From a virus (Duplodnaviria > Caudoviricetes): a stretch of 56,023 bases of DNA. Each line of letters starts with the position of its first letter. Position 1 is the stretch's first letter. The stretch spans positions 1 through 56,023 of the IMG/VR virus record IMGVR_UViG_3300025282_000041; one strand, written 5' to 3'. A program made the position numbers and the translations under genes. Below are positions 3,852-56,023 of the stretch, piece by piece. The notes beneath the pieces were generated by a model, which was not told the origin of the DNA, searched no databases, and saw only the letters and a program-made list of their open reading frames with translations.

Positions 3852-3852
3852 A

Positions 3853-12800: not shown

Positions 12801-15800
12801 GTTCCCCGGTACAGCGTACCTTGACCAACACAAGGGAGTGCCGGCCCCACCATTCTACAATCAGGATATGCAGTTGTCACCAGACATGGCACAGGGCGCT
12901 GGGAATGTACCTACCGCCACTGACACACCGGATGATGACTCTGGGTCTGGAGGGTATCTAGAGGACGGCCAGACGGTAGTTCAGACACAACCAAGTCCTG
13001 TAGTGCTACGATTCGCCCATCCTTTTGGTCGCTACGAGGATGCTCAATCAGCAACCGTCAAGACCTCCACCACCTACCTCATCTTCGGGCCGGGTCAATC
13101 TGTACCACACTTCTTCCAGACTGAGTATGACACATACTCAGCCCCTACATCCATCCGTGAGCCATCTGTAGGCATGGCTGTTGGGGGGTTGCATAGTGTC
13201 AAGATGCAACGCCCAGCAGGTGCTGTTCCCAGTTATCCGTATCACATATCTGGCCCCACTGGTGCGAATGCATTGGGATGGTATGGCACACCATCATACG
13301 CATACCTGCCCAATGAGATTAGTCATGGTCATGCCACGACATGGGCGACAGGCACAAAGACGGTGGGGTTGTATGGTTGGAGTTCAGCGATTGGGTGGAT
13401 GCCACCAACTACGGCATATCAGGTCACTAACACTGCTAGATGGCAGGGAGTAGACAACTGGGAGCCTGCTCAGGGTGACCCTAATGCAGCACAGTACAAT
13501 CAAGCAGGGGCCGAATATGGGAGATACCTGAGTGACCACTTCCTTCGTCACGATGGTAGTCTTGACATAGCCCCAACTGCCAACATTTGGTCATTTGGGT
13601 CAGTCGGCAATGCGCACCCATTCACAGCACTATCGCAGTCCATCGTGGGTGCTAGTCATGCCACCCCAGCAACTGGTGGCGCACCTACAGCCGGCCCAGT
13701 CCTTGACTTCTCCAACCTACACGCAGATGCTACCGCTGCAGACATTTCATGGCACATGGATGGTGGACATGCACCGGGCGGTCACTTCTTCGATGACCGA
13801 GTCGTACGCAACCCAAACAACTTCGGCGTGTACTCGTATCCGTGGCGACAATCGACGGACATGAATGGTACTGGGTTTGCATTCAATGCTGCATACCGTG
13901 TCGGTGACAATGCTGCCATGTTCCGAGTCGGTGCGCCCATGCTACGCCGTCTGGTTGCAGATTGGGGATACGCTCAGGACAACTACTCAGGTGGTGTCGA
14001 GGGAGATGTAGACCGCGATGTAATCATCATCGACGCAACGCGTGTGCAGAACTCAGAGGAACTAGGTGCAGTCATCTCATGTGCAATCAACGAGTGGCCG
14101 GGTTCAGGAGCGCTCAAGGCATTAGGTGGCACATTCCTACCATCATTCCAACACGCACACAAGCAGGACCGCTACTCTTGGGTCCAACTACCGATGGAGA
14201 CTCTCGCTGGTACAGGCTCATTGAACGGTCGTGCTGACCACTTGACACATGTTGGTGCAGTAAGTACTCATTTTGAAGACCCCGCCCGCGATGCTGGAAT
14301 GAGTCTGAGCATCAGCGGGTCGACCTACTACATGCCACCATCACTACCCTATGTAGGTTGGGCGAGGTTCTTCCTAGATACTGCTGGAGCGGTCCAACGG
14401 TATGTCGGAGCCGATACGAGTCTTGATACAGTCGCTAGTATGAATGACCGAGGATTTTATGGGTTCTATCGTGGTGTCGCTCGTAGTGATGACACCGGAG
14501 TAAAAGCAACTGGAGCAAATCGTTCCATCTTCATCGGTCGAAACTATCGAACTGGTATGCGTATCGTAGAAGACCCAACTGTGGATGCCACAAAGCGAAC
14601 CATATCTGGGCCGGGAAGCACCTATCCGGGTCACATATATCTGGAACCTGCTTGCCATGTTGTGACACCAGATGCTGCGGGCGACAAGGCTCCTGTCATG
14701 CACATCTGGACAAAGACTGGCAACCACCGATGGGACAATGGTGGTATATCCAATCAGTTATCCCAATTGTTCTCTGTTGGAGACTCATCATTGTCCACCA
14801 CACAGAAGTATGTGTGGGATGCATTGGCAGGGACTCATGTACACTTCAATGGCCTGACCGATGCGATAGACCGGACACGACCCATTGGTGCCATTGGATG
14901 GCATGGGGAGCGATACTCAATGCTCAACTCACTGGGTATAGTGGAGAAGGGATACTGGGGCATCAGTCGAGGTTTGGGCGCATGGCATCCATTCCTGTCA
15001 TTCTCACCATATGGAAGCGGGTTGAACTGTCACTATTCCAACTACATCGGTCAGTACAGTACCACAGCAGCAGCAGCAGCAGCAGTACAGTACGGTTCTG
15101 GATGGATGAACAACATGAACAAGACGAAGGGAACCCATGAACATCACTTTGTCGTCATCAGCCATGAAGGAGAACTACCGTTGATTGCCCGCGCTGACAG
15201 GTTGGGACAAAGTGGGTGTGGTGACTTCTTGAGTGGGATATGGGATACAGCACCCGGAGGTAGTTCAATGACACCACCCGGCTTTGCTGACACCAATAAC
15301 ACAGCCGTACTACCGCGAGCAGAGAGCCTCCTTCGCACGACTGCATGGAGTAATGACATCCACAATCCAAGTAGATACTGGTGTCCAGCCAATGGTGGGC
15401 CATATGTGGAGGCACAGGTCGTAGCCGGGATGGACAACCCCACCACTAACAACACCAAGAGGACCAATATGAAGTGGGGGGCTGTGAACAATGACGGTGC
15501 CGACAACGCACTTGCAGACAACTGTGCGGCCCAGACTGGTGACCTGTTCACATCCAAGGAATGGTTGGGTATGGCCAATGCCCTATATCAAGACACGAAT
15601 GGGTTGGGTGGGATACGAGATGGCTCAGCATTCCCCGGCATATTCGATGCTGACAATGAGCCACACCGATATTGGCATGACCCCCTTAGCAACACCGGAA
15701 AAACATCATCATTGAACTTCGGCGTGAACCACATAGTCTGGAAGCGCATGGATGGTGGCAACCTATCACTACCTGCACCCAACGCCCGAGGTCTTGGAGC

Positions 15801-18800
15801 AGTACCTTGGACATGGCGCAAGCAAAGCGGCACCACCAACTACTACAAGACTGGTGAGACAACCTATGGCAACTGTCGGTTCTCGTTTGAGACGACCAAC
15901 AGCGCCATGTTCCCTGTCATCCAAGCACAGGAACTGGCACACCCACAACTGGCTGAGCGATTCCCTCATCTAGTCAGGAACGCACTCATCATCCCCAACG
16001 AGGACATCCAGTTTGAAAGCATGGTTGTCATTGATGACACAGGGCAAGAACACACCATCGAGGGTGGCTCCCCGTTCGGAAGCATCATTCGTGACTTCAA
16101 GGAGATATCTGACAGGTCAACCGAAGGCCTAGCACCTGCCCTTGGAGGGTCAGGCAACAGTCCGAACATGCGCATCCAGTTGCCAGACCCAAACACCATC
16201 CCCGGCAACATCGTGGTGCGCTCCGGGTTCGACCGCCTACAGGCATACCAGAATGAGTCAATCGGCACTGGTGGGCTTCAGCATCCCGGCCAACCAACCT
16301 CATTCGTATCCAAGGCATTCGATGGCAGTGGCCCAGATGTGGCTACATGGCCGACTTGGGAAAACAATAATTGGGAACAGATTTCAGTGGGACCGAGCAA
16401 TAACTCAGCAGACTCAAAGGAGATTGGCACCTCGCATGACTTCCCAGATTCATTCCAGACTGGTTGGGACGGTGCCACAAACGATGCACCACTACAGACG
16501 GCATACGAACCCCATGACCGCACTCTCTACTTTCACATCACCAAGATGGACATATCCTACAGCAAGCGTGAGGATGTTGGCTCAGTTGAGTTCCTGCATC
16601 GGACACCTGTAGGTGGCAGTGCAACCAACCTCGTGGTGCGTGACAACATCACCGTCAATCAGACTGTGTTCACTGGCGTCGAACTTGTGTATGATGGAAC
16701 AGTACACTATGCGACTGTGAGTGGTCTTACATCAGGCCCAGTATTTGGTAATCTAGATGAACAACTCAATGATGGGACAGGGCGATGGTTCTTGGTGGCC
16801 ACCAACTCAGCGGGCAAGGTAGCCATCGCATCCTATACGGGCATCACCACTGGCTCCACCAAGTTCACTGGTGTTGTGTTCGGGCCGGGGTGGGATTCTA
16901 CATTTGATGACGCTACCATCCATCCATCTTACTACACACCTGCAGGAACCACCCGCCTGTTTGCTGCCCGTCGACTGCGTGACCATGCTGAGATAAGCGG
17001 TGACAGCCCAGACATGCCACGCATCGAATGGCACAAGTTGAATGCCGGTACTTCTGACAATCCCTACACCCTCATCACTGCACCCAAGTTGACGCCCATG
17101 CCCATTCCACGCATGGGTCACCACTATGTGAATGCGACAATGGCCATGATGCCGGGTCACTTGGCACACCCATTGTATCAAGGTCTATACCGTGACCACC
17201 TAGCCTGTGCTGGTTCAGCCTACGCATCGCTTGATAGCAATATAGATGAGAACAGCGGTAATGCGAACGCCCTCCCAACTATGGACCCCAACATCTGGTT
17301 CTCCAACCTGACACCGAACTATGCACCATCTGACATCCACGGTGGGGCATTCACACTGATGACTGAGACCAAGGTTCGGTTCGACGGGTATGGCATCCTC
17401 GCCTCTTCTGGTGTAGCAGGGGTGGTGAACAGCAAGGGTGGCCATGTCATCATATTGGAGGCAGCCAACCAACACACCCAGACCTCTCACTTCCCTGACC
17501 CATTAGAGGTGGGGGCATACCAAATCATTATCCAACCCAACATTTTCAGCCAGCAAATCACTGGATTCCATGAGAACACACCGTTTGGCGACACAACCTC
17601 GCCTCGTAATGCAGCAGATGGTGCTTTTGAGGCAGACCTTGAATTGAACCTTACTGGCCAACAGGTGGCAACTGTTGTCGGTGTCGTACATGACTGGGCC
17701 ACCTATGGTGGTAGCAGTCTAATCCTAGCAGACACCGTATCCGCTGATGTGAGAGGATGTGAAATCTACATCAATGAAGTCATGCTGGACATCGACCCTG
17801 CACCGGGTCAGCAATTCACCTCACTACCACCATTGGCGAACTTCAATCCGTTGGGTGTGAACGAGACGATGAGTCCTCCCTTCACTCGTCGTTCGCTGCC
17901 ATATCATCCTACCGCGTTCAAGCGAGCCACACCGGGGTACACCTTGACCATCCCTTGGTGGGCCATCGGTGTGCAGACTGGCAACTATTCTGGTCTCACC
18001 TTGTTCGGCGTGGATGACTACTATCTGTTCAATCGCTCCACACTTGGTGCCATCAGCGCCCAAATCACACTCGCCGGTTATCCCACTCACTTCTATGAAC
18101 CATACACTCGTGAACTGCAGAGCCTCAACCCACGATGTAAGGTTGTAGCCAACCCCACTGCCGCCGCTAGTGTCACCCTGTCTGTTGATGACAACGCTCT
18201 GTTCCCATTGAACGGTGCGACATACGGGCGCAAGGTTGTCACGATTGATTCCGCTGGCACAGAGCACTTTGCAACATACACGGCTCGTGGGACCAGTGGG
18301 GCATCCACTGGGGATACAGACAGGTTCCTCGTATTCACCCCGGCAGATGGGCTAGGTGCATCCTCCCCCATATGGAATGTATTGACCAGTAGTCACAGCC
18401 TCTACAATGGGGGTACCCTCCGGTTGATGGGCGCGCACAACAACTTCTCACCGGGCGATAATTACACTGACCAGACCATCAGCCCACTACCACGCACACT
18501 ACCACAGTTGTTGTCCGGCACCAGAGACACCAACAGCCTTCACATGGCCGATGCATACCTGTGCATGTGGCATCACAATCTGGGTCGCCCATACACCAAG
18601 TTATCCGATGGGTCACACGCCAGAGGTCGGAATGATGCATACCCACCAGTCAACAAGAAGCCGTACAACATCATGCCCGAATCGTTTGAGATGGTTCACT
18701 ACCACGAGTTCTCGTATGCCATCAGCAACGGCCCATTCGCACTTGGCATGAAGGGAATGTCCCACAGGTCTGTAAGTGGTACATCGACAGGTGCATGGGA

Positions 18801-21495
18801 TAATGCCAACCATCGTGCGACACTAACAGGAGGTCATGTGAACAACTTTGGAGCAGATGGTGGGACATTTGATGGGTTCTATCTTGAGTGTGGTGGTGCG
18901 AGGGCATACACTGCTCCCGGCACTGTGACATTCACCATTACATATGGCACCAACAGGTTGACTGCAACTAGTGGTGGGACTAGTGTCCTTACCACATTTG
19001 AGGCCAAGGTCATATCTGGTGCGGTGCTAAATCTCATCCAACCATCACTTACCAATGCGCCAGAGGACCCCGACTCAGTCGCACCCATAGCGCCAACGGT
19101 GATGCCATCAGGTGCCAAGTTCTTCTATGGTGGGTTCTGGCCCGGAGGGACACGATACGGAGCCAGTGCATCACGGTTGGACATGTGGGGTGATGTCGAG
19201 CGAGGCTGGAATGTAGCCGACCCATTCTCTGGGTCATGCATAGCGTACACGGCCCAGTATAATGCTGGACCGGCACTAGACCCAATGGAGATACGAACAG
19301 ACCAGACGGTGACTGCAGCATGGGCCAACTTCCCAACCACACCGAACGACGGTGTTCCTTGGACGCGGAACTACTGCTTTGGCTATCGGTTCTCGGTGCG
19401 TCAGCCATACAATCGACCCAAGTGGGCTATCGCAATCAAGAGCGTTGCAGATGCAGCATCAGGCTCACATAGCAATGGTCACTACGCATACTTCAACGGG
19501 CCATTCGTTCAAGCGGAGAGTGGTACTTGGACAAGTCGTGCAGTCACGCCAAACAATGACACAGCGACCCTTGCGAATGGGACGATAACAGGCATCATTG
19601 AGAGACAGACGAATGCATCTGCGTTGCTCAGCCATGACCTCCCCACTTGGCAGGTCAGGTATAGCGATGGTCGTCGCATGACCAGACCGTTCGGTTGCCC
19701 CATCCGAGTCCTACGAAACGATGACAAGTCAAGGCGGCTGTTCCCCGGCGACCATATAGGCAAGAGCATCGAAGACCTCGTGAAGGCAAACATGTACTAT
19801 GTGGTCGACTGGTGGGGCAACACCACAGGTGAGGATGTCCGCCGATTCCCTGTGCGTGGGTTCGGAGTGCGACCGGCATTCGACCCGGAGGCATGGAGGT
19901 ATGTCCTACCATTCCCACTACCTGCCACATCACTGTTCTTCATGCATCCAGACACAGTGCAGCCACCGTCTGTGCAACAAGGCAATCGCAATGAATCCAA
20001 CAACGCCGTCTTCGATGCGGTCAGTAGTTACTACACCAAACTAGCAGACTTCTTCAACCCGATTGACAGTGTTCGTGTTGGTGACCGAGGTGATGGGCGA
20101 GGCTCCAGATACCCGGTGTTCTTCAACGAGTACATACTGCAGGATGTGGACACCACTATGAACCCAATAGGTATGGTGATGTCATATCACACTGCAGAAC
20201 CTCCATTCACCACCGGCCTGTTGCGACCACGCAACGATGCGCTACAGGACTACGAGGTGCCTCGTGGAATCAGTGGTCGTCTTGGCATATCAGACACCGA
20301 TGGGCTGTTGAAGCCCGAGGGCATGGTCGGAGCGAATGTCGAACAGATATCTGGGGTGTTTGGAGCAGAGGGATTATCGTTCTATGACCCCGTATCTCGC
20401 TTGTCACCACGCATCGGGTTGGATTCCATGACCGTCACCGAGGCCAGTGACAATGACCCACGAAACTACATTGTTCAGGCAACACAGGCAACCAGCCTAC
20501 ACACAGACCGTGAAGTAGGGCAACGGTACATATTCCAAGGTTCGTTTGAAACTATTGACCTGTACAGTTCATCAGGAGTAGGGACTATCGGTGCAGGGAT
20601 AACCCACCTTGACATGTCTAAGACAGCGGGTACTGATGTGTGGGCCGATGGTGAGGGTGGTGTGCTACGATTCAACAACGCTCATGGTGTATCTCCGATG
20701 GGAGGCAACTACATCATGGAGGTGTCTAGCCATGTGGAGCCATTCAATGACTACAACTGGGGCATAGACACAGCCAATGCTGCGTATGTACTAAGCACCT
20801 TCGGGCCAACATCGAACCCATATCAAGGGAATGCCACAGCCGGTGTGAATGACCCAATGCGACGAAGGACGAATGCCACAGACAAGACAATCCGATTCCT
20901 ACTCCGAGTGTGCATGACACTTGACAGTCGCCATATAGCATTGTTCAGGCCACGAGGCCCAGCAACATTGAAGGGACCCCAATCATCTAGCCATGCAACA
21001 TTCTTTAAGATGACAGGGGGTTGTCGATATGGGCTGTTCAACTATGATATGCCCAATGCTCGGGCAGTGACCAGTGGGAGATATGTCCAGACAACAAACC
21101 CATCACCAACCAGTGGGCCATATGTAGCATCGTACATCCCAGACCACAAAGGGGGTACTTCTTTCAGTAGCAACAAGTCTCATGGCCCATATATTCGTGG
21201 GGCAGGTGTAGATGGAACGACACCAACACTGGCAGATGCCGTTGCTCGTCTCATCATCAGCGAGAACACACTGCAGCACTACCGTTCCGACGCATCACGA
21301 CGCCAAGGCACCGAGGACGATGATGGTGATGTGACGGTGAGGTATGACTACACGGTGGAGCCAAGGCACAGTCAGACGCTACACCCGAAGGGTGAAGATG
21401 CGACAACCGACTTCAATACGGCAGACCATGATGACGATACACCAGATGATTACTATGCTACAGGCACTGGGAGCCTCAGGACGGTGGACTACTGA
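3853..21495 (+). CDS. Giant (~5,880 aa) virion/tail adhesion protein with N-terminal LamG (ConA-like) domain
   Basis: Single 17.6-kb ORF. N-terminal FNGVSD...FTIEAWV...YHIVGVF...KLYVNG...LYIGG...FRGTI...ALWRFEE matches LamG_3. G/T/S/A-rich, located in the tail module. ATG at 3853 preferred over 3838. Confidence 0.8.
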   Translation: MTLIGKTSHALFFNGVSDAVVVPQALFSKTGMNVGVGGKSSVTTTGHTRMTEGVQSEHTTLGRITQSFTIEAWVIPDCGGVIASKEGMFDLRMGEVGTPGPAQFMVQVFNANLGQQTITVSSASPFIAASAQNGWDGIVYPTHGNDSLQGTFNRFNGSKNNESALNRNHRELYHIVGVFTGEQVKLYVNGELVASQKLQQKMPLNHNANDLYIGGKGGEFRGTIEGLHIRRGFNESAIRPAPIIASGDTIALWRFEEPVEVPSLELNLNVAATASTSASGSTLTINNAQGKLLVEYLTGQTPTEDTIVALDGAPYTNGKYQVSTAGAIQAPDHLPINLLINPTGVDEKTGVAYQTSPPERVRLKTVTWDSDGTTNTTLQVYSIHLDFSNSTTTGLRGLLHAHAAFDATNQKALGSMMVVINSDLLVDSGTGKPLRPPGYGTQAIDRTGQMVIDEVGANHGFMFNQQLATNTTTNPYAFNWGASAIPDGFQAGHTGRHLYSHVTGHPFLRHLPPAEEEVVVQRIDGDNDRFSASFDGAATGLKDQLPIGSIVDIHRQGYMGKTMTVESSSTITAMTSGGAAVENGMVGVDSTQRNLIAIGGAGFNPTPFLLKGHALLDENISNATYDLHLTPEDEPRVAILEVPGLSANNIAPYVEIHYNAIDLKGSTIQYAASGIATTGWDNVNHRATLATNAVKAFGAHNDTFDGYYLTCGGERAYGSTGTVTFTVNHTNNRLDATGGGASVLAAFEAQVNAAGALIQLELRGPALCVTKTIPDAATIITGTTQVADLIQTAITAGTTIHAPGGMIRIDDKDIGTGSVTMDDHRLVGDNTGGTTFEIELDKSMIPSNHMPNASTDSPQLPPQGVVASHVATTTHPSTYHKLIVRPLQSGASAKARFDPPVTTAPNQFILSPLVEASSNANGAFDTPASNHRTHLHESYDIIDNWVEGKSRVFVVQPTIRSRTMQLSKFVGSETNFTDTNFVSIEYLLMRGRIKSFQDVRTTKRSLLVRGIGLMDDVKGVQASFTGDASPDSHPVKEISPGGPVVAVSLGGPGQGAINTKPTYDPSPIARIGWNTRRPCGATISAVDVGSVPKTIYVQPMNNNSESLATWGHICFPPGSGSGGTGIARIHLANGASAAYYDIIGRNFAFDTTDTNMVGWFINADGTTESTFANWVAINTAVNGKNIYVDPYIGDDTVCEDGTTIQDRLFQKLGSVTHDYQLGTQYASTRALVEIPLFPYHFFEDRDKGIFPGPDNSMRINLDATLTAQNWCPNPVGRRPCGGGIAGTDTTVVGPYGYQFTQELVTKGTIATSTISKQSGHGNQPRLFVDNIDIFPDANDWDDEISINRRGGGTITANKVFLENGEWAYYCGKASNYLILLDNDTGESNARSGQFFESLEVGMRVSPTMQTFDDNVVSIADDNRYSVSEAQEFRSPYYHDMANVQTQGGNVDYGLKQYVSAVEFKDGPRENPHLPKLQPGRWSGNVKHYGHAGGVSTILVSDDELFPEIGAMLRYGAKTIFDWKVLNLRTGAYLAINYTTTFAVGGSSANPLGSASGFAAQTWHPRGFHKILTVKNWTSYAAAVVPADIKEGDDLLLVSLEVNPNNGPVSPGAYADTFPKVIDDAVLNASWLFPYASGGLRSGDTVWMNMHYTNPHATEGMFCKSRGVLDEGKVWNGFNGGSGLMTTRSRSSTPLENFLIGNTCRETAENFAQHVNKTIELNLKNMSHPSVGRIVAFVDPYLSKDTHARVLLYDVKGDRELVAFNDLHMQVQSSPDAIKIDNLDVAYGFTSQQLGKDSSKAYTTSDGGGIDSHASTGYLLSPKVRGPTGTSTFIEGAYAHIDQVVLNVDRNDNTDTSSNALMKWELTNLFKRNYEQGPTRMPSTCSNGRMPLRTQDAACCLSEAQNYHGQGLQDETEAGAFWTPAHAHAATAVRFNSITFDTPNGTRAIPAFLCLKGIRAVDSTTTDADLSNLPHWKQMDFVRRLSIDLGEIGLKEGVTNIESAAREIVRYINQAGAKQGRSNIRRPPDQYPGKSLDGDPAFAHIAADYAVTGSTHDPASFWDDEAFSSYDRGSHMGYLRAHIGRVIEDTDGVEGFTVVIHSTIPGATGRNFCAWLDNSRGQAPYKPQFLVGHGGRFRNFYCQPDEKWGECMHPAPMPIDKNGKPFAPITTLHEMTLSSEPSTHVDDTQNRSPTVQESFVATEGTATVTNISGNIGAGSASNTVGSETNLHNEAHIIQGLRVGTQAHAQINCGGLVASGIPGWSPDLGTWGFGDGENSRAHSIYSSNGPSAYTTHVPSGDMIDVGDSQMYAFQFTDHLKRNHNIRMVYKQYGKVFSSINTKLPSSLENEVVIWFDDRNVGDGGFTIGKHMKGIGDAANRIKTGHDWKTGVALSTIGNQNYCGNRWNGVPAHEGAYAVTVVKPAAGATTLRLQSGAGTVGSFGRDNAGIWHDLPDGTVDVLGYLGFPKENGVMQVSVPKTGTLKEMGNSGYFVSYTHRTTAGKAGPHSFFGCEGLDTTGLKDFAAGVIGPTQYTDAQAPVCISPTPNWTTLVTDELIAAAVEYALTMGDPNSDEVGATSFDCTEMYTGDGRTFGEWGVSSTAIRVKAYSNTTEVIAPRHLFEVNRQPDWGILDAHVHETQVSTTISGTAYLSPIGALATSASTRGLLNSVIDAGQQLSCGYIPKTVLHITTRYRGTNANTATPVIIDSDNNPINTDIWKQNLRGERYTYWPGDHILPRAENPATIVDGNTAASTWTITLTDSATYGVHQAFHFAPVGRAKAEDVNTISPAGSTHVPFYTTPNLGEDASYSERYTVWFSDREWCSVEAYALDVGPVTDDYGARHKHVFNRDIFAGAGVLTAARQNSESEDFDSLVDAAIGQDMCVLALWGNRPLLDGMRTTGSNKQAEPYVYFRGARDSPDHSVPLYFGGGFSGAVMDINDGTQNDYTDFYTHPYSSGPTGCAGIQNANELMGSHCILDTTAMLAMFPGTAYLDQHKGVPAPPFYNQDMQLSPDMAQGAGNVPTATDTPDDDSGSGGYLEDGQTVVQTQPSPVVLRFAHPFGRYEDAQSATVKTSTTYLIFGPGQSVPHFFQTEYDTYSAPTSIREPSVGMAVGGLHSVKMQRPAGAVPSYPYHISGPTGANALGWYGTPSYAYLPNEISHGHATTWATGTKTVGLYGWSSAIGWMPPTTAYQVTNTARWQGVDNWEPAQGDPNAAQYNQAGAEYGRYLSDHFLRHDGSLDIAPTANIWSFGSVGNAHPFTALSQSIVGASHATPATGGAPTAGPVLDFSNLHADATAADISWHMDGGHAPGGHFFDDRVVRNPNNFGVYSYPWRQSTDMNGTGFAFNAAYRVGDNAAMFRVGAPMLRRLVADWGYAQDNYSGGVEGDVDRDVIIIDATRVQNSEELGAVISCAINEWPGSGALKALGGTFLPSFQHAHKQDRYSWVQLPMETLAGTGSLNGRADHLTHVGAVSTHFEDPARDAGMSLSISGSTYYMPPSLPYVGWARFFLDTAGAVQRYVGADTSLDTVASMNDRGFYGFYRGVARSDDTGVKATGANRSIFIGRNYRTGMRIVEDPTVDATKRTISGPGSTYPGHIYLEPACHVVTPDAAGDKAPVMHIWTKTGNHRWDNGGISNQLSQLFSVGDSSLSTTQKYVWDALAGTHVHFNGLTDAIDRTRPIGAIGWHGERYSMLNSLGIVEKGYWGISRGLGAWHPFLSFSPYGSGLNCHYSNYIGQYSTTAAAAAAVQYGSGWMNNMNKTKGTHEHHFVVISHEGELPLIARADRLGQSGCGDFLSGIWDTAPGGSSMTPPGFADTNNTAVLPRAESLLRTTAWSNDIHNPSRYWCPANGGPYVEAQVVAGMDNPTTNNTKRTNMKWGAVNNDGADNALADNCAAQTGDLFTSKEWLGMANALYQDTNGLGGIRDGSAFPGIFDADNEPHRYWHDPLSNTGKTSSLNFGVNHIVWKRMDGGNLSLPAPNARGLGAVPWTWRKQSGTTNYYKTGETTYGNCRFSFETTNSAMFPVIQAQELAHPQLAERFPHLVRNALIIPNEDIQFESMVVIDDTGQEHTIEGGSPFGSIIRDFKEISDRSTEGLAPALGGSGNSPNMRIQLPDPNTIPGNIVVRSGFDRLQAYQNESIGTGGLQHPGQPTSFVSKAFDGSGPDVATWPTWENNNWEQISVGPSNNSADSKEIGTSHDFPDSFQTGWDGATNDAPLQTAYEPHDRTLYFHITKMDISYSKREDVGSVEFLHRTPVGGSATNLVVRDNITVNQTVFTGVELVYDGTVHYATVSGLTSGPVFGNLDEQLNDGTGRWFLVATNSAGKVAIASYTGITTGSTKFTGVVFGPGWDSTFDDATIHPSYYTPAGTTRLFAARRLRDHAEISGDSPDMPRIEWHKLNAGTSDNPYTLITAPKLTPMPIPRMGHHYVNATMAMMPGHLAHPLYQGLYRDHLACAGSAYASLDSNIDENSGNANALPTMDPNIWFSNLTPNYAPSDIHGGAFTLMTETKVRFDGYGILASSGVAGVVNSKGGHVIILEAANQHTQTSHFPDPLEVGAYQIIIQPNIFSQQITGFHENTPFGDTTSPRNAADGAFEADLELNLTGQQVATVVGVVHDWATYGGSSLILADTVSADVRGCEIYINEVMLDIDPAPGQQFTSLPPLANFNPLGVNETMSPPFTRRSLPYHPTAFKRATPGYTLTIPWWAIGVQTGNYSGLTLFGVDDYYLFNRSTLGAISAQITLAGYPTHFYEPYTRELQSLNPRCKVVANPTAAASVTLSVDDNALFPLNGATYGRKVVTIDSAGTEHFATYTARGTSGASTGDTDRFLVFTPADGLGASSPIWNVLTSSHSLYNGGTLRLMGAHNNFSPGDNYTDQTISPLPRTLPQLLSGTRDTNSLHMADAYLCMWHHNLGRPYTKLSDGSHARGRNDAYPPVNKKPYNIMPESFEMVHYHEFSYAISNGPFALGMKGMSHRSVSGTSTGAWDNANHRATLTGGHVNNFGADGGTFDGFYLECGGARAYTAPGTVTFTITYGTNRLTATSGGTSVLTTFEAKVISGAVLNLIQPSLTNAPEDPDSVAPIAPTVMPSGAKFFYGGFWPGGTRYGASASRLDMWGDVERGWNVADPFSGSCIAYTAQYNAGPALDPMEIRTDQTVTAAWANFPTTPNDGVPWTRNYCFGYRFSVRQPYNRPKWAIAIKSVADAASGSHSNGHYAYFNGPFVQAESGTWTSRAVTPNNDTATLANGTITGIIERQTNASALLSHDLPTWQVRYSDGRRMTRPFGCPIRVLRNDDKSRRLFPGDHIGKSIEDLVKANMYYVVDWWGNTTGEDVRRFPVRGFGVRPAFDPEAWRYVLPFPLPATSLFFMHPDTVQPPSVQQGNRNESNNAVFDAVSSYYTKLADFFNPIDSVRVGDRGDGRGSRYPVFFNEYILQDVDTTMNPIGMVMSYHTAEPPFTTGLLRPRNDALQDYEVPRGISGRLGISDTDGLLKPEGMVGANVEQISGVFGAEGLSFYDPVSRLSPRIGLDSMTVTEASDNDPRNYIVQATQATSLHTDREVGQRYIFQGSFETIDLYSSSGVGTIGAGITHLDMSKTAGTDVWADGEGGVLRFNNAHGVSPMGGNYIMEVSSHVEPFNDYNWGIDTANAAYVLSTFGPTSNPYQGNATAGVNDPMRRRTNATDKTIRFLLRVCMTLDSRHIALFRPRGPATLKGPQSSSHATFFKMTGGCRYGLFNYDMPNARAVTSGRYVQTTNPSPTSGPYVASYIPDHKGGTSFSSNKSHGPYIRGAGVDGTTPTLADAVARLIISENTLQHYRSDASRRQGTEDDDGDVTVRYDYTVEPRHSQTLHPKGEDATTDFNTADHDDDTPDDYYATGTGSLRTVDY

Positions 21496-44881: not shown

Positions 44882-45805
44882 CTAGAAGTTGGTGGAGTCG
44901 ATGTTCAGTCGTTGGACTATCTCTTTGTAGCGATTGCGAATCGTCACTTCAGTCACACCAGCAATCTCGGCAATCTCCCGTTGGGTGCGCCGGTTATCCA
45001 ACACCACACCAGCGATGTAGATTGAGGCGGCGCACATCCCTACAGGACCACGCCCACAGTCAATCTCCCACTCATGGCACAGGGCGATTATCTCATCTGC
45101 CTTGGAACTCACTGCAGCACCCAACCCCAGTTGGGAGCAGAACCTAGCGGTGTACATGTCCGGTGTCGGTATGTCTGCACGAATCTTCAACTTGCGCTTG
45201 ATGAGACGGGTGGTGCGCCCTATCTCCTTGCGACCAGTTCGGGCAGACTGGGCAATTTCATCGAGGGTTCGTGGCACACCACACAATCGGCACGACAGGT
45301 ATAGACACGCTGCCGTGACCCCCTCTATGGAGCGACCACGAATCAGGTTATCCTTGATGCAGTGCCTGTATATTCGGGCAGAGCGTTCACGAACCGACTT
45401 CGGTAGTTCCAACCGACTGGCTATCCTATCCATCTCAGCGAGTGCCATAGATAGGTTGCGCTCGCGTGAGTTGGACACTCGGGAGCGCTTCTGCCACTTC
45501 CTCATGCGATAGAACTGCGAGCGTGTCCTACCGTTCCCAATCGACTTACCTGAGTAGTCCCTATTCTGCCAGTCGATGTCGGTCGACAGCCCCTTATCAT
45601 GCAGCATCTCCGTCATCGGAGCACCGACTCGCCCTCGCTGCTCGCCCTGTTCAATGCTGAATACTCGCCACTCCGCTCCGGGGTCTACTATCCTATCATC
45701 CAATACCAACCCACAGTTGGCGCAGATGATTTCACCACGAGCATCATCCCTCTCCAGTTCACGCCCATTGCACTCTGTACACTTCACTATATCTTCTTCG
45801 TCCAT
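44882..45805 (-). CDS. tfb: Transcription initiation factor TFB (TFIIB)
   Basis: Zn ribbon CTEC...CANC, B-reader EWRVF, two cyclin repeats (GRSIEGVTAACLY; VTEVTIRNRYKE); GGAGG RBS before ATG 45805. Confidence 0.95.
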   Translation of the reverse strand: MDEEDIVKCTECNGRELERDDARGEIICANCGLVLDDRIVDPGAEWRVFSIEQGEQRGRVGAPMTEMLHDKGLSTDIDWQNRDYSGKSIGNGRTRSQFYRMRKWQKRSRVSNSRERNLSMALAEMDRIASRLELPKSVRERSARIYRHCIKDNLIRGRSIEGVTAACLYLSCRLCGVPRTLDEIAQSARTGRKEIGRTTRLIKRKLKIRADIPTPDMYTARFCSQLGLGAAVSSKADEIIALCHEWEIDCGRGPVGMCAASIYIAGVVLDNRRTQREIAEIAGVTEVTIRNRYKEIVQRLNIDSTNF

Positions 45806-45863
45806 ATGTATTCCTCCAATCATTTGACACACCCAATCAAAAGGGTTTGATAAACCCGATGCA

Positions 45864-45875: not shown

Positions 45876-46253
45876 TTAAGAATCAGGGTTATTTATGATT
45901 CCTGCTGCAGCATCGGCCTCGCTCGACAACAACAACCCCAGTTGACTGTGCAACTCCCTTGCTTGCTCCCATGACAGACGCACACCACGACTGGTCGGCC
46001 CGTTCTCGTTGACATGGGCATCGTTCCGCCACAACCGTAGGTCTATCTCCTGCTTGTCACTTCCCATGAACCGGATGTGGCTCAATCGCAGGTCAAAGAA
46101 CTTTGACCTCGTTCCCTTGGCGGGGGTCACCCAGAACGGGATGCTCTCTTGGTCACTGTAGTGACCTGCTCCCTTCGTCGTCTTGCCCTGTCTCTGCGTG
46201 GTGCCTTTACCTACCACCCATCTAGTACTCTCATCATCTTCACTCATTACCAT
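45876..46253 (-). CDS. PC4-like ssDNA-binding protein
   Basis: IDLRLW...PTSRGVRLS PC4/YdbC signature. Confidence 0.7.
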   Translation of the reverse strand: MVMSEDDESTRWVVGKGTTQRQGKTTKGAGHYSDQESIPFWVTPAKGTRSKFFDLRLSHIRFMGSDKQEIDLRLWRNDAHVNENGPTSRGVRLSWEQARELHSQLGLLLSSEADAAAGIINNPDS

Positions 46254-47539: not shown

Positions 47540-47772
47540 TCGCTCTCCTCCAGTTTCGTTGCGGCCTCAGTCACCATCGACTGCCAGTCCGAGTCAACCG
47601 CCATTTTTTCAGCCGCCACCGTCAATCCCTGTAGGATTTTGTATGCCGAGTCAATTGATTGCTGCACCTCGTCCATCTGATAGTCATGCAGCATCGCTGC
47701 ATCAGACAGGACGCACAACGCCTCTTCAAGACCCATTAGTAGGACATCCCAGAACTCATGTTGGTGGCTCAT
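47536..47772 (-). CDS. Hypothetical protein
   Basis: ATG 47772 overlaps the upstream stop; RBS present. Confidence 0.5.
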   Translation of the reverse strand: MSHQHEFWDVLLMGLEEALCVLSDAAMLHDYQMDEVQQSIDSAYKILQGLTVAAEKMAVDSDWQSMVTEAATKLEESE

Positions 47773-48422
47773 TCCTCTTCCTCCGCTCGCGTAGACTGAC
47801 CTCCCCACTTGGCCACTTTCACTGCTAATGGCTCGCTCTGATTTGCTAGTTCTAGACGAGACCGAGCGTTTGGATTTGGAGAGCGTGTGTAGTGGATGGC
47901 GAGGGTATCTCCACCAAACCAATCATCCATGTAGGAACAGTGCTCAACCATGTAGTAGTGGCCATCGCAGAGGATTCTGTGGTAATCCTTCTCAAGGATG
48001 TCCTCTGCCAGTGATTGCCAGTCGATGTACGCATGGAGCATCACCTTCGGGCCGTCCAAATCCATTTGTTTCCCGATGCTATTATTCATGAGCAGATGAT
48101 TGATGGAGACATAAATGTCCAGTTTGCTGGAGAAATGGTTGCAGAGTTCCCCTTCTCTTGGTAAGTTCAAATTGAATATCAAACTGAACCTTGAGAGACC
48201 CTTCACCCACTCTGTTAGTTCATCGACGGACACCACCTCCATTTCAGCGTGGAGGCGTTTGTATCTCTCAGCGTGTTGCCCGCAGAGACTACCTGCACCA
48301 ACAGGGTCGCTTCCAGCGAGTTCGTATGCGTGGTCGTGCCAAGCCTCAGGGTCCCTTGGCCAGCCAGTCATCGCCGCTAGCAACATTCGTGCCTTACTTG
48401 GGTGTTGAACATATTGCGTCAT
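47769..48422 (-). CDS. Hypothetical protein with an ArdA-like C-terminal motif
   Basis: LHAYIDWQSLAEDILEKDY resembles ArdA YIDYExxARDL. Confidence 0.45.
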   Translation of the reverse strand: MTQYVQHPSKARMLLAAMTGWPRDPEAWHDHAYELAGSDPVGAGSLCGQHAERYKRLHAEMEVVSVDELTEWVKGLSRFSLIFNLNLPREGELCNHFSSKLDIYVSINHLLMNNSIGKQMDLDGPKVMLHAYIDWQSLAEDILEKDYHRILCDGHYYMVEHCSYMDDWFGGDTLAIHYTRSPNPNARSRLELANQSEPLAVKVAKWGGQSTRAEEEE

Positions 48423-53633: not shown

Positions 53634-53939
53634 TCAACACGCCCTGTAGAGATAGATGTAGTTATCATACTCCACCTCATGGTAGTCCTGCAGCAGGGAC
53701 TCGGCCACCCGCTCCCAGTCGATAGCATTTGCGATGAACCAAGGCAACTCACTTATGGGGTACCCGCAATCATCACAACACTGCTCTGCCCAGTCGCCCA
53801 GTCTACTCCTGTGTCCCTCCCATTCAAACGCCTCCTCCGCATCTGCATAGGAGAACCCTACCTCCTCCATCGCTCGGATGTGATGCTTCAAGCAGTCACA
53901 GTCATCCGGCTCCTCGTCACAATACTTGCACTTGCTCAT
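53634..53939 (-). CDS. ArdA-like antirestriction (DNA mimic) protein
   Basis: Acidic; GDWAEQCCDDCG...LPWFIANAIDWERVAESLLQDY...YLYR matches the ArdA C-terminal pattern. Confidence 0.6.
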   Translation of the reverse strand: MSKCKYCDEEPDDCDCLKHHIRAMEEVGFSYADAEEAFEWEGHRSRLGDWAEQCCDDCGYPISELPWFIANAIDWERVAESLLQDYHEVEYDNYIYLYRAC

Positions 53940-54118
53940 TCTCTCCCCTCCGCATTCTCAGCCCATTCAATCCACTCCACTCCATCAAGGCAGTATTTAC
54001 ATCCTTCACAACATTCACTACATCCCTTTTCGTGATGCCAAAAGCACTCGCCATCATAAGGGGGTGTAGTAATCCCACAAGTTTTACATTGTGATACTTT
54101 TACTATTCTATAATTCAT
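53936..54118 (-). CDS. Small Cys-rich protein
   Basis: CKTC, CSECCEGCKYC; coupled on both sides. Confidence 0.5.
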   Translation of the reverse strand: MNYRIVKVSQCKTCGITTPPYDGECFWHHEKGCSECCEGCKYCLDGVEWIEWAENAEGRE

Positions 54119-54939
54119 CACTCTTCCTCCGCAAACAGTGGCGGCGGCTGTTCCCAAGGGAACGGGAGTTCGTGGACTGCATCGCACAACTCACCAGCCC
54201 TCTCGATGAATGCCTCGAACTCCTTTAACCAACCAACAATCTCCTTCGCCAACTTGTCAGCCTTCGCAGCGAGGTCACCTGTGATGCGAGTCCCCTTGGT
54301 GTCACACTCATAGGTAGCCAATCCAGAGCCCAAACGCTGCCAGTTGTATGCGTATTGCTGCTTGAAGTTCATGAATGTAGAAAGTGCTTGGTTGTCTAAT
54401 GACCTAACCTTGTTCTCACGCAACTTCACAACAGATTCATTCCATTCATCAGGGCTAATTTGGCCTCCAGTAATGTATGCATGTTCCATGCTCTCCTCCC
54501 ATGCATCCCAAGGGACTATACTAGCGCTGTTGTTGTATCGGTAGGCATTGACCCACGCAACACACCAAGTCGGAAGTTTGTTCTTCACCTCATCACTCAT
54601 ATGGCGCACACGAACCTTGGCCCACCAATCATTAGGGTCAGCCTCAGCATCTGCTGCCGCTGCCCAGAACCCCTGCTTTATGAGCACCGCTGTAGGGAAC
54701 ACCTCATCTGCACACCTCTTGCAGACGGTGGAAGCACCCCACTTCACCGACGCCTTACCGGAACACTGCCCGCTGCTGCGACGGGTGTACCTGTATCCAA
54801 GGCACCGTGTCTCTGCGGTGACCCTCACCGTATCATCAGCGACCCAGCAGTTCCTTCCTTCATCATTCTGTTGCCAACTGCCGCCTCTCGCCAACTTGTC
54901 AACCGATTTGTCTCTTTCAATTATCCTACTCAATGCCAT
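54118..54939 (-). CDS. Hypothetical protein with zinc-binding cysteines
   Basis: First gene after the 54951-54984 promoter; CKRC. Confidence 0.65.
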   Translation of the reverse strand: MALSRIIERDKSVDKLARGGSWQQNDEGRNCWVADDTVRVTAETRCLGYRYTRRSSGQCSGKASVKWGASTVCKRCADEVFPTAVLIKQGFWAAAADAEADPNDWWAKVRVRHMSDEVKNKLPTWCVAWVNAYRYNNSASIVPWDAWEESMEHAYITGGQISPDEWNESVVKLRENKVRSLDNQALSTFMNFKQQYAYNWQRLGSGLATYECDTKGTRITGDLAAKADKLAKEIVGWLKEFEAFIERAGELCDAVHELPFPWEQPPPLFAEEE

Positions 54940-54950
54940 ATTATCATTGC

Positions 54951-54984
54951 TCCATCATTCTATGGGGTGTCAAAGGTATTTAAT
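54951..54984 (-). promoter_or_regulatory. Conserved viral promoter ATTAAATACCTTTGACACCCCATAGAATGATGGA
   Basis: Near-identical to 51496-51529; lies right after the repeat array. Confidence 0.8.
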
Positions 54985-54994
54985 GGGGGGTGGA

Positions 54995-55908
54995 TTTTCG
55001 CTCGTCCGGCTTGCATATTCTGTTTCATTGGCTCGCTCTCTCTTCATGTTATTCATCTATGTTGGCTCGCTCATCGGAATTGCATATTCGCTCGGCTTGG
55101 CTCGCTCGCGCGTTTTGCATGTTCTCCTTGTGTGGCTCGCTCGCGTCGTTTGCTGTTCTGGGTTTATGGCTCGCTCGATGTCCCTGCTGTTCGTCCGAAA
55201 TGGCTCACTCATCATCCTTGCATCTTCACGCACATTGGTTCGCTCGTCACCGCTGCATATTCTGGCTCAATGGCTCGCTCTCGAACTGTGTTCATCATCT
55301 GAAATGGCTCGCTCGTTTTCACTGCATCTTCACGCCTCGTGGCTCGCTCTCTCCTGCTGTACATTCTTTCATTCTGGCTCGCTCGCTTGGGATGCATGTT
55401 CGTTGTACTTGGCTCGCTCGCTCACCCTGCATGTTCAGTGACTATGGCTCGCTCTCTTCCAATGTTATTCTCGTCTCGTGGCTCGCTCTGATTTGCTGTA
55501 TATTCCATCATCATGGCTCGCTCCCGATAGGTGCATATTCATTTGGAATGGCTCGCTCTCTTCCAATGTTATTCTCGTCCGTTGGCTCGCTCCGGTTCCC
55601 TGATAATTCCCGCCGGATGGCTCGCTCGTGCAACTTGCATGTTCGTGAACTGTGGCTCGCTCTTTGGTTTTGCATGTTCTTCCCGAGTGGCTCGCTCTAG
55701 TCTCCTGTATATTCTTTCATTATGGCTCGCTCCCGCCGCATGTATATTCTGTTTCTCTGGCTCGCTCCAACCGTTTGCATATTCTCCGATAATGGCTCAC
55801 TCTCGCAACTTGCATGTTCGACGACTGTGGCTCGCTCTCGATGCAATGCATATTCCTTCCTCATGGCTCGCTCAATTACTGTGCGTGTTCTCCAATCATG
55901 GCTCACTC
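54995..55908 (-). ncRNA. Dual-repeat, dual-spacer guide-RNA array (TIGR-like), 26 units of 34-36 bp
   Basis: On the + strand: TGGCTCGCTC-N8-TGCATRTTC-N8. There are 26 full edge repeats from 55029 to 55899 plus a degenerate one at 54995-55003. Spacers are nearly all distinct, and no coding frame is maintained. Confidence 0.85.
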
Positions 55909-56023
55909 AGAGCGTGATGCCCTCGTGGTCCATCCACTCCCCTAGGTTGGGAACAGGTATCTTCCTGCTGTGGCCATCCATCGTTAGAACGAACGGCTGC
56001 TCCGGTTCCCTTCCGTGGTGAGC
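55907..56023 (-). CDS. C-terminus of a gene immediately upstream of the array, candidate Nop-domain Tas protein
   Basis: Open frame AHHGREPEQPFVLTMDGHSRKIPVPNLGEWMDHEGITL*; the TGA (55907-55909) overlaps the first edge repeat. Only 38 aa are visible. Confidence 0.5.
   Translation of the reverse strand, partial: AHHGREPEQPFVLTMDGHSRKIPVPNLGEWMDHEGITL

What the first reader, a model, noticed from the sequence alone, without database searches (positions are those of the whole stretch)
54995..55908. Tandem dual-spacer guide-RNA-like array (TIGR-type) with 8-nt spacers in an archaeal virus
Seen: 26 consecutive units that read, on the - strand, GAGCGAGCCA-N8-GAAYATGCA-N8. Edge repeats start at 55029, 55063, 55098, 55133 ... 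55864, 55899 (mean period 34.8 bp). Two different repeats alternate. Both begin with GA and end with CA, so each spacer sits in a CA-[N8]-GA frame. Spacer length is 8 nt with one 9-nt exception (unit 55828). Spacer sequence is highly diverse, while the loop repeat tolerates 8- or 9-nt variants (GAATAACA, GAACAGCA). Strict spacer length with free sequence argues for guides rather than a decaying minisatellite or iterons. Known: TIGR-Tas systems have alternating edge and loop repeats around two ~9-nt spacers, processed to ~36-nt tigRNAs that guide Nop-domain Tas proteins to both strands of a DNA target without a PAM. Inference: this is a TIGR-family array, possibly a distinct subtype (35-nt unit, 8+8-nt targeting, GA after each spacer), used against competing viruses or host genes.
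Basis: partly seen in the sequence, partly recalled or inferred. Interest (0 to 1): 0.95.

Follow-up and report, generated by a model that had tools for sequence, protein, structure and literature searches.

The report
TIGR guide-RNA array, marine archaeal virus
This is a genuine array of 26 short dual-spacer guide RNAs (a TIGR array) sitting directly behind the cut-off end of its partner gene in a marine archaeal virus, and it belongs to a guide-RNA family that was described in 2025, so it is real but not a new kind of system.

Summary
On the - strand, 55908..55004 carries 26 head-to-tail units of GAGCGAGCCA-N8-GAAYATGCA-N8 (19 of 35 nt, 6 of 34, 1 of 36), followed by a 3'-truncated edge repeat.

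The TIGR reading is supported. The 117 bases between the array and the contig end (56023..55907, -) encode the last 38 residues and the stop codon of a Tas protein. These residues are 74% and 68% identical to full-length Tas genes that sit directly upstream of the same kind of array in two metagenome relatives, one of them syntenic. They also match letter for letter the C-termini of several Tas proteins in Table S1 of the TIGR discovery paper. A relative's Tas folds confidently, and its 10 best PDB matches are TasH and TasR. It has no nuclease domain, so it is TasA-type.

The "distinct subtype" idea fails. The characterised Salicola phage TIGR has 8+8-nt spacers and an edge repeat identical at 9 of 10 positions.

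No targets were found: paired-spacer matches are not enriched.

Verdict: a new member of a known kind, of modest interest.

The parts
55907..56023 (-). 3' end of the tas gene: the last 38 codons plus the TGA stop. The gene is cut by the contig end. The stop codon (55909-55907) overlaps the first two bases of the first edge repeat.
   Evidence: Translation P0124. BLASTP gives 28 of 38 identical to the C-terminus of P0123 (L005 Tas) and 26 of 38 to P0122 (L007 Tas), E 3e-18 and 2e-18. By eye, the fragment is identical to the C-termini of 316-aa Tas proteins in Faure et al. Table S1, rows 3384, 3399, 3465, 3471, 3500 and 3547.
55004..55908 (-). Dual-repeat TIGR array of 26 units: edge repeat GAGCGAGCCA, 8-nt spacer A, loop repeat GAAYATGCA (8-9 nt), 8-nt spacer B.
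   Evidence: The same architecture with near-identical repeats occurs in L004, L005, L006 and L007, in L003 and in SpTIGR.
54998..55003 (-). Terminal 3'-truncated edge repeat (GAGCGA), after which the sequence diverges.
   Evidence: [quoted passage not shown] No hairpin terminator follows: the RNA fold z-score for 54940-55120 is -0.90.
54118..54939 (-). Conserved ORF of unknown function (P0001, 273 aa) directly downstream of the array. It is a syntenic neighbour and is not shown to belong to the system.
   Evidence: No Pfam, PHROG or PDB sequence match. Homologs at 31-42% identity follow the array in L007, L006 and L004. The single-sequence AlphaFold model is poor, with pLDDT 42.8.
47819..47847 (-). 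Solitary copy of array material: an exact 19-nt match to 'A + spacer B GCAAATCA + edge repeat' of unit 55523, followed by a unit-like stretch. It lies inside ORF 47769-48422 (-). Unexplained.
   Evidence: (E 9.8e-4). The ORF has no homolog in the syntenic L007.
45939..45955 (+). Weak candidate self-target of guide 55662. The site reads spacer A + 1-nt gap + reverse complement of spacer B, with 1 mismatch. It lies in the gap upstream of the viral TFB gene.
   Evidence: This is 1 hit against 0.12 expected from 650 mispaired spacer combinations, which is not significant on its own.

Best explanation
This is the guide-RNA array of a dual-repeat TIGR-Tas system carried by a marine archaeal tailed virus whose gene content resembles Poseidoniales viruses.

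Shown here:
- 26 units of edge repeat, 8-nt spacer A, loop repeat and 8-nt spacer B on the - strand.
- The 3' end of a tas gene directly upstream, with its stop codon overlapping the first edge repeat.
- The same tas-array layout in relatives.
- A Tas fold in a relative that matches solved TasH and TasR structures and has no nuclease domain (TasA-type).

Inferred from the characterised systems:
- tas and the array are transcribed together on the - strand.
- The precursor is cut inside each edge repeat into 34-36-nt tigRNAs, each made of half an edge repeat, spacer A, the loop, spacer B and half the next edge repeat.
- A TasA dimer holds the repeats by their GA...CA ends, which correspond to box D and box C.
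- Spacer A pairs with one DNA strand and spacer B with the adjacent stretch of the other strand, giving 16 nt of recognition without a PAM.
- With no nuclease, the likely outcome is DNA binding that blocks transcription or replication of a target, whether host, rival element or the virus's own genes. The targets are unknown.
For: Array anatomy and statistics.

tas fragment: P0124 is 74% and 68% identical to the C-termini of P0123 and P0122. It is identical to the C-termini of Tas proteins in Table S1 of Faure et al. 2025, which also lists L005's Tas by matching contig label and coordinates, and L007's Tas sequence, all in cluster node10324.

Layout in relatives: a profile of 120 Tas-family proteins hits L007:10112-11119(-) at E 2e-99 and L005:1662-2621(+) at E 2.4e-99. 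Both lie directly upstream of arrays with the same repeats.

Synteny: 9 of 45 window ORFs (43.4-54.9 kb) have ordered homologs in L007 at 31-83% identity.

Family membership: profile A1 against PDB sequences gave 4 of 4 hits in the Tas/IS110 group: TasR 9MTY at 1.1e-21, TasH at 5.4e-10, IS621 at 3.5e-6 and ISCro4 at 3.7e-5. The AlphaFold model of P0122 has pLDDT 87.6. Its 10 best Foldseek PDB matches are all TasH or TasR chains (E 9e-6 to 1.5e-4), followed by IS110-family recombinases.

No nuclease: Pfam gives only a weak Transposase_20 match, with no HNH or RuvC. The model is all-helical. The profile matches TasR from residue 117 and TasH from residue 87, after their nuclease domains.

Comparison with a characterised array: SpTIGR has edge repeat AAGCGAGCCA, 8-nt spacers and loop repeat AAGACAACCA.

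Mechanism from the literature: PMC12045711 (sections read); TasA as a repressor in preprint 10.64898/2026.09.09.750476 (passages); Tas self-processing by Y289/H296 in PMC13421893 (passages).
Against: Only 38 codons of tas lie in the window, so an intact effector in this virus is inferred, not seen.

The residue aligned with the catalytic Tyr289 of SpTasH is Phe in the window fragment and in P0122 and P0123; 32 of 36 aligned family members have Tyr and 36 of 36 keep the His. Self-processing may therefore differ or need another factor.

No target was found. Paired-spacer matches with up to 1 mismatch in the window numbered 1 against 0.12 expected, and there was no enrichment across about 88 kb of related DNA.

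No expression data exist here. No terminator-like hairpin follows the array. The loop repeat ends in GCA or ACA rather than the CCA of the edge repeat.
Confidence: 0.9

Rival explanations
1. The array is an orphan or decaying remnant. It has TIGR ancestry but is no longer used, and tas is truncated or inactive in this virus.
For: tas is seen only as a 38-codon fragment. Phe replaces the processing Tyr. Loop repeats are variable, with 11 variants. No targets were found.
Against: 22 of 26 edge repeats are identical and the 8-nt spacer frame holds in 25 of 26 units. The tas fragment is in frame to its stop and identical to full-length catalogued proteins. The tas-array module is conserved in the syntenic L007 and in L005. 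The gene is truncated by the contig end, not by a mutation.
Confidence: 0.05
2. The repeats are a minisatellite or a set of iterons, that is, protein-binding sites for replication or packaging near a genome end, and not guide RNAs.
For: The array lies at the end of a linear contig. The repeats are short and regularly spaced.
Against: Two different repeats alternate, with fixed 8-nt spacing and free spacer sequence. The same design lies mid-contig in L003 and L007. It is always next to a Tas gene in the same orientation. The repeat is near-identical to that of an experimentally processed TIGR array.
Confidence: 0.02
3. The array is a cluster of archaeal box C/D sRNAs that guide 2'-O-methylation of RNA with host Nop5, fibrillarin and L7Ae.
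For: The host is archaeal. Box C/D sRNAs also carry two guides between box motifs, and Tas and Nop5 share the Nop domain (PMC12045711).
Against: No match to any Rfam family beyond one irrelevant hit at E 0.46. By my recall of the box C/D consensus, there is no RUGAUGA or CUGA box and no K-turn-forming pairing, and 8-nt guides are shorter than archaeal C/D guides. A dedicated Tas gene, rather than the host Nop5, is encoded next to the array.
Confidence: 0.01
4. The region encodes a repeat protein on the + strand (ORFs 54548-55441, 54990-55700 and 55531-55917).
For: Open frames of 128-297 aa cross the array on the + strand.
Against: The period of 34-36 nt is not a multiple of 3 and varies between units. 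No Pfam family matches at E below 0.02. By inference, the + strand is pyrimidine-rich in the spacers, which lowers stop-codon frequency. One of these ORFs also overlaps P0001 on the opposite strand.
Confidence: 0.01

Closest known systems
SpTIGR-TasH of Salicola phage CGphi29 (dual-repeat TIGR; PMC12045711, PMC13421893, PDB 9W03 and others)
   Same: Both are dual-repeat arrays with 8-nt spacers A and B. The edge repeats are AAGCGAGCCA and GAGCGAGCCA, identical at 9 of 10 positions. Both end in a truncated edge repeat, and both lie directly downstream of tas. The Nop and coiled-coil fold matches.
   Different: The Sp unit is 36 nt with a 10-nt loop repeat, AAGACAACCA, ending in CCA. Here the loop is 8-9 nt, GAAYATGCA, and the unit is 34-36 nt. 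Sp has 10 units and the window has 26. SpTasH carries an N-terminal HNH nuclease, while relatives of the window's Tas have none. The processing Tyr289 is Phe here. The host is a bacterium there and, by gene content, an archaeon here.
TIGR-TasA systems (nuclease-free Tas; for example FpTasA with a dual-repeat array in PMC12045711, and MbTasA as a transcriptional repressor in preprint 10.64898/2026.09.09.750476)
   Same: The effector is a solo coiled-coil plus Nop protein of about 320 aa next to a TIGR array. The expected outcome is RNA-guided DNA binding without cleavage.
   Different: The TasA proteins shown to repress or bind DNA (passages) use stem-loop arrays, whereas this is a dual-repeat array. 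FpTIGR has 9+9-nt spacers. Nothing has been tested for this clade.
TaTasR (Thermoproteota TIGR-TasR, PDB 9MTY)
   Same: It is the best sequence-profile match in the PDB, at E 1.1e-21. It has the same dimeric Nop architecture and also uses a dual-repeat array.
   Different: TasR has an active N-terminal RuvC domain, 9-nt spacers, and repeats that start with UG and end with CCA.
Archaeal box C/D sRNP and the IS110 bridge-RNA recombinases
   Same: They share the Nop-type RNA-binding domain and the layout of two guides between box-like motifs. IS621 and ISCro4 are the next PDB matches.
   Different: There are no K-turn boxes, no fibrillarin partner and no DEDD or serine recombinase domains. The guides are arrayed in tandem.
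CRISPR arrays
   Same: Both are tandem arrays of variable guides between conserved repeats, sit next to the effector gene and are processed into unit-length RNAs.
   Different: Here two alternating repeats of 8-10 nt replace a single repeat of 23-36 nt. Each guide is split into two 8-nt spacers that read opposite DNA strands. There are no cas genes, no PAM and no known adaptation machinery.

Membership tests
TIGR-Tas (dual-repeat type) | Two distinct alternating short repeats (8-12 nt) separated by two short spacers of fixed length (8-12 nt), repeated many times. | tested here: met
   26 units with a 10-nt edge repeat, an 8-9-nt loop repeat and 8-nt spacers, with one 9-nt exception. Definition from PMC12045711.
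TIGR-Tas (dual-repeat type) | Box D at the start and box C at the end of both repeats, covarying between edge and loop. | tested here: met
   All 26 edge and 26 loop repeats start with GA and end with CA. The edge repeat ends in CCA as in TasR and SpTIGR, while the loop ends in GCA or ACA. In relative L003 both repeats end in CCA.
TIGR-Tas (dual-repeat type) | An adjacent gene for a Tas protein (coiled coil plus Nop domain). | tested here: met
   The window holds only the last 38 codons. They are identical to the C-termini of proteins catalogued as Tas, and full-length tas occupies the same position in L005 and L007. The gene is cut by the contig end, so completeness in this virus is not seen.
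TIGR-Tas (dual-repeat type) | The Tas fold matches solved Tas structures. | tested here: met
   Tested on relative P0122, not on the window's own protein. The model has pLDDT 87.6. The top 10 Foldseek PDB matches are TasH or TasR. The profile matches 9MTY at E 1.1e-21.
TIGR-Tas (dual-repeat type) | [quoted passage not shown] | tested here: inconclusive
   The 3' end is met, with GAGCGA at 55003-54998. The first edge repeat in the window is full length (GAGTGAGCCA) and overlaps the tas stop codon. In L005 and L007 the first repeat is 5'-truncated.
TIGR-Tas (dual-repeat type) | A Tyr/His dyad for pre-tigRNA processing in the C-terminal loop of the Nop domain (SpTasH Y289/H296). | tested here: not met
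   The His is present, but the Tyr position is Phe in the window fragment, P0122 and P0123. Among aligned members, 32 of 36 have Tyr and 36 of 36 have His. Residue numbers come from PMC13421893. This is a feature of dual-repeat Tas proteins rather than of the family definition. By my reading of the alignment, TaTasR (9MTY) has Trp at the aligned position.
TIGR-Tas (dual-repeat type) | The array is transcribed and processed into unit-length (about 36-nt) tigRNAs bound by Tas. | not testable with these tools
   No RNA data are available.
TIGR-Tas (dual-repeat type) | The two spacers pair with opposite strands of one DNA target. | tested here: inconclusive
   No enrichment of A+rc(B) or rc(A)+B sites with a 0-2-nt gap in the window or related loci. 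Power is low.
Archaeal box C/D sRNA | Box C (RUGAUGA) and box D (CUGA) forming K-turns, with guides of about 10-12 nt. | tested here: not met
   No Rfam family match. The box consensus is recalled and no such motifs appear in the units.
CRISPR | A single repeat of 23-36 nt alternating with spacers of similar size, plus cas genes. | tested here: not met
   The repeats are 8-10 nt and of two kinds. The only Cas-related Pfam match in the window is a PD-(D/E)XK/Cas4-like nuclease 20 kb away.

The most novel reading that the evidence does not exclude
The tas-array module is a conserved core feature of a Poseidoniales-virus-like lineage. In this reading, a nuclease-free TasA with Phe in place of the usual processing tyrosine uses the guides to regulate transcription of the virus's own or its host's genes rather than to fight rival elements. 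The near-match of guide 55662 upstream of the viral TFB gene (45939-45955) and the stray array unit at 47838 would then be parts of such a self-directed circuit. The array would grow by duplication and divergence of units, as the paralogous units suggest, and not by capture of foreign DNA.
Probability: 0.1. Interest if true: 0.6.

Novelty: new member of a known kind. Interest (0 to 1): 0.3.

Why it matters
TIGR-Tas was described in 2025. Its natural targets, and the way arrays gain spacers, are still open questions (PMC12045711, Discussion).

This locus adds a long, well-kept 26-unit array in a marine archaeal virus whose gene content resembles Poseidoniales viruses: thermosome, PolB, TFB and a giant LamG-domain protein (compare the passage of PMC11706807 read). 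The main text of that paper has no occurrence of TIGR, IS110 or transposase.

The comparative set found here (the window, L004, L005 and L007) shows three things:
- Spacers turn over almost completely between viruses whose flanking genes are about 70% identical. Only 1 of 26 window units has a partner in L007.
- A closer pair of arrays shares diverged units: 6 of 24 L004 units have a partner in L007.
- Arrays contain paralogous units: 3 pairs at 5 or fewer of 16 mismatches, against 0.16 expected.

This is modest evidence on array evolution. It does not change what is known about the family.

Tried and rejected
- Exact array pattern in viral contigs: 0 hits. A looser pattern found only L003.

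- P0001, the ORF downstream of the array, as a possible divergent Tas: no Pfam, PHROG or PDB sequence match. No similarity to the Tas profile; the best window hit of that profile is E 0.55, elsewhere. The single-sequence AlphaFold model was too poor to use, at pLDDT 42.8. No close relative in viral contigs. Rejected as the effector.

- Pfam Nop (PF01798) and protein P0002 searched over the whole window in six frames: nothing. The 38-codon fragment is too short for these searches. It was found by reading the frame upstream of the array.

- Target search: A+rc(B) and rc(A)+B with gaps of 0-2 nt and up to 2 mismatches against the window, with 650 mispaired spacer combinations as control. Five arrays were also searched against about 88 kb of related DNA on both strands. 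No enrichment. Database-wide 16-mer searches were not run, because by my estimate chance hits would swamp them.

- Host assignment through the viral thermosome in genome contigs: no relative found.

- PolB against isolate phages: the best matches are haloarchaeal tailed viruses at 22-24% identity.

- Tas-based scans of viral contigs: none with P0123, and one 45%-identical Tas with alignment A2 (L009). The 1.1 kb downstream of it shows no array. Its upstream side was not examined.

- Rfam scan of the array: nothing relevant.

- RNA fold of the array's 3' end: no structure beyond shuffles.

- Earlier findings of this scan: none on record.

- Not seen: the large supplementary PDF of PMC12045711 (figs S4, S5, S7), which could not be read, and the TIGRSafari catalogue, which the preprint says is not yet public. 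I therefore cannot say whether this very array is already annotated.

Full report
**Observation.** On the - strand, the stretch from 55908 down to 55004 consists of 26 head-to-tail units: GAGCGAGCCA, 8 nt, GAAYATGCA, 8 nt.
- 19 units are 35 nt long, 6 are 34 nt and 1 is 36 nt.
- 22 edge repeats are identical, and 4 differ at one base.
- The loop repeat has 11 variants of 8-10 nt. All of them begin with GA and end with CA.
- All 26 spacer A sequences and 25 of 26 spacer B sequences are distinct.
- The pattern GAGCGAGCCA-N8-GA with up to one mismatch occurs 27 times in the window, against 0.26 expected from 100 shuffles.
- The array ends in a truncated edge repeat, GAGCGA, at 55003-54998.

**Context.** The window is a whole IMG/VR record of 56,023 bp. 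It is linear and about 51% complete by CheckV, so it cannot be extended.

Its genes mark an archaeal tailed virus. They include a thermosome-type chaperonin, family B DNA polymerase, an RFC-like ATPase, TFB, an ERCC4 nuclease, two DNA methyltransferases, a tape-measure-like protein and a 5,885-aa ORF with a LamG-like domain. This gene set resembles what PMC11706807 describes for Poseidoniales viruses of magrovirus group A (passage read). That is a resemblance, not a phylogenetic placement. PolB is only 22-24% identical to haloarchaeal tailed viruses among isolates.

**Finding the effector.**
- No Nop or Tas gene was detectable in the window by Pfam or by a Tas protein search.
- A loosened array pattern found a second viral contig, L003. 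It carries more than 40 units of GAGYGARCCA-N8-GAAGACCA-N8, followed directly by a 345-aa ORF, P0002. That ORF has weak matches to IS110-family Pfam and to solved TasR and TasH.
- A metagenome scan with the window's own pattern found four loci with the same repeats.
- A profile of 120 homologs of P0002 hit one ORF in L007 (E 2e-99) and one in L005 (E 2.4e-99). Both lie directly upstream of the array and on the same strand.
- L007 is syntenic with the window from 43.4 to 54.9 kb. Nine of 45 window ORFs have ordered homologs there, at 31-83% identity.

I then read the 117 bases between the array and the contig end in the frame of the stop codon. They give 38 residues, of which 28 match the L005 Tas C-terminus and 26 match the L007 one. 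The TGA stop at 55909-55907 overlaps the first edge repeat. So the window does contain the end of its tas gene, and the rest lies beyond the contig end.

**Family membership.** A 36-sequence alignment of this Tas family matches four PDB sequences: TasR (9MTY, E 1.1e-21), TasH (5.4e-10), and the IS621 and ISCro4 recombinases. The paper confirms that 9MTY is the TasR complex.

An AlphaFold model of the L007 Tas has pLDDT 87.6 and is all-helical. Its ten best Foldseek matches in the PDB are all TasH or TasR chains.

There is no HNH or RuvC domain. Pfam finds only a weak Transposase_20 match, and the profile aligns to TasR and TasH after their nuclease domains. The protein is therefore TasA-type.

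**Already catalogued.** Table S1 of Faure et al. 2025 (PMC12045711; ProteinInfo sheet searched) lists all of the following in one cluster of 42 rows (node10324):
- the L005 Tas, with matching contig label and coordinates;
- the L007 Tas sequence;
- several 316-aa proteins whose last 38 residues are identical to the window's fragment.

**Comparison with the characterised systems.**
- Faure et al. define dual-repeat TIGR arrays as two alternating 8-12-nt repeats with mostly 9-nt spacers. They note that SpTIGR of Salicola phage CGphi29 has 16 nt of variable sequence.
- A later preprint speaks of its 8-nt spacer A.
- I read that phage's array directly. It has 10 units of 36 nt: AAGCGAGCCA, 8 nt, AAGACAACCA, 8 nt, followed by a truncated edge repeat and a terminator.
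- The window's edge repeat is identical to it at 9 of 10 positions.

The proposed new subtype is therefore not one. The real differences are a shorter, more variable loop repeat that ends in GCA or ACA, a much longer array, and a nuclease-free effector.

One further difference concerns guide processing. SpTasH cuts its own precursor with Y289 and H296 (PMC13421893, passages read). In the alignment the His is kept in 36 of 36 sequences. The Tyr is Phe in 4 of 36, including both close relatives of the window's Tas, and it is also Phe in the window fragment.

**Mechanism.** By homology, tas and the array are most likely co-transcribed on the - strand. The precursor would be cut within the edge repeats into 34-36-nt tigRNAs. 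A TasA dimer would then use spacer A on one DNA strand and spacer B on the adjacent part of the other strand. Without a nuclease, the outcome would be binding and repression, as shown for other TasA proteins (preprint passages). None of these steps is shown here.

**Targets.** From the reported 8-nt 3' overhangs and the C-5 rule, I derived the site as spacer A followed by the reverse complement of spacer B, and I tested both orders with 0-2-nt gaps.
- In the window outside the array there is one hit with one mismatch. It belongs to guide 55662 and lies at 45939-45955, upstream of the TFB gene. The expectation from 650 mispaired controls is 0.12.
- Hits with two mismatches are at or below expectation.
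- Five arrays searched against about 88 kb of related DNA show no excess.

Targets remain unknown, as the literature says for TIGR in general.

**Array evolution.**
- Only 1 of 26 window units has a recognisable partner in L007 or L004: TAGTCACT with GGGTGAGC, at 2-3 of 16 mismatches.
- L004 and L007 share 6 of 24 units, against a null mean of 0.05.
- Within the window, three unit pairs differ at 5 or fewer of 16 positions, against 0.16 expected.

Spacers thus diverge fast, and at least some units arise by duplication.

**Rivals.**
- A box C/D sRNA cluster is excluded by the lack of any Rfam match and of the box motifs.
- A coding repeat is excluded by the variable period, which is not a multiple of 3, and by the empty Pfam results.
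- Iterons or a minisatellite do not explain the alternation, the fixed frame with free sequence, or the constant Tas neighbour.
- An orphan remnant cannot be fully excluded, because tas is cut by the contig end.

**Verdict.** This is a correctly recognised TIGR array and a new member of a known kind. Its effector family is already catalogued. The unexplained details are the stray array unit at 47838, Phe in place of the processing Tyr, and one weak self-match.

Noticed in passing
window 47819-47847 (-): An exact 19-nt copy of the last loop base, spacer B (GCAAATCA) and the edge repeat of array unit 55523. It lies 7.6 kb from the array, inside ORF 47769-48422 (-). It is followed by TTAGCAGT, a GA...CCA stretch and AGTGGGGA, which looks like a degenerate solitary unit. 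The ORF is absent from the syntenic L007.
   Followed up: partly
window 45939-45955 (+): CAGTTGAC-T-GTGCAACT matches guide 55662 as spacer A, a 1-nt gap and the reverse complement of spacer B, with one mismatch. It lies in the gap upstream of the viral TFB gene (44882-45832, -). This is 1 hit against 0.12 expected, so it is only a weak lead.
   Followed up: partly
window 55907-56023 (-); P0122 and P0123: The Tas clade of this virus group has Phe where SpTasH has its pre-tigRNA processing Tyr289, while the His296 equivalent is kept. Among aligned family members, 32 of 36 have Tyr.
   Followed up: partly
window 55891-55898 (-) and L008:15537-15544: Spacer A of the window's first unit (TGATTGGA) is identical to spacer A of one SpTIGR unit in Salicola phage CGphi29. 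Both are followed by an atypical loop containing ACAC. The expected number of shared 8-mers is 0.017. This may be chance or an old conserved unit.
   Followed up: no
window 3838-21495 (+): A single 5,885-aa ORF with a LamG-like (Laminin_G_3) domain near its N-terminus and no other Pfam match. It is comparable to the large LamGL-like protein reported for Poseidoniales viruses.
   Followed up: no
window 54118-54939 (-): A 273-aa ORF with several N-terminal cysteines and no family match. It follows the array in the window and also in L007, L006 and L004 (31-42% identity).
   Followed up: partly
L003 at about 19820, 18777, 17874 and 14649 (-): A conserved intergenic element of about 90 nt lies upstream of four genes. 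It contains GAGCGGGCCA, which matches 9 of 10 positions of the TIGR edge repeat of the same contig, flanked by hairpins and a ribosome-binding site.
   Followed up: no
window 53634-53939 (-): A 101-aa ORF with a weak, below-threshold match to the antirestriction protein ArdA (Pfam E 4.8e-4, 21.2 bits against a cut-off of 27).
   Followed up: no
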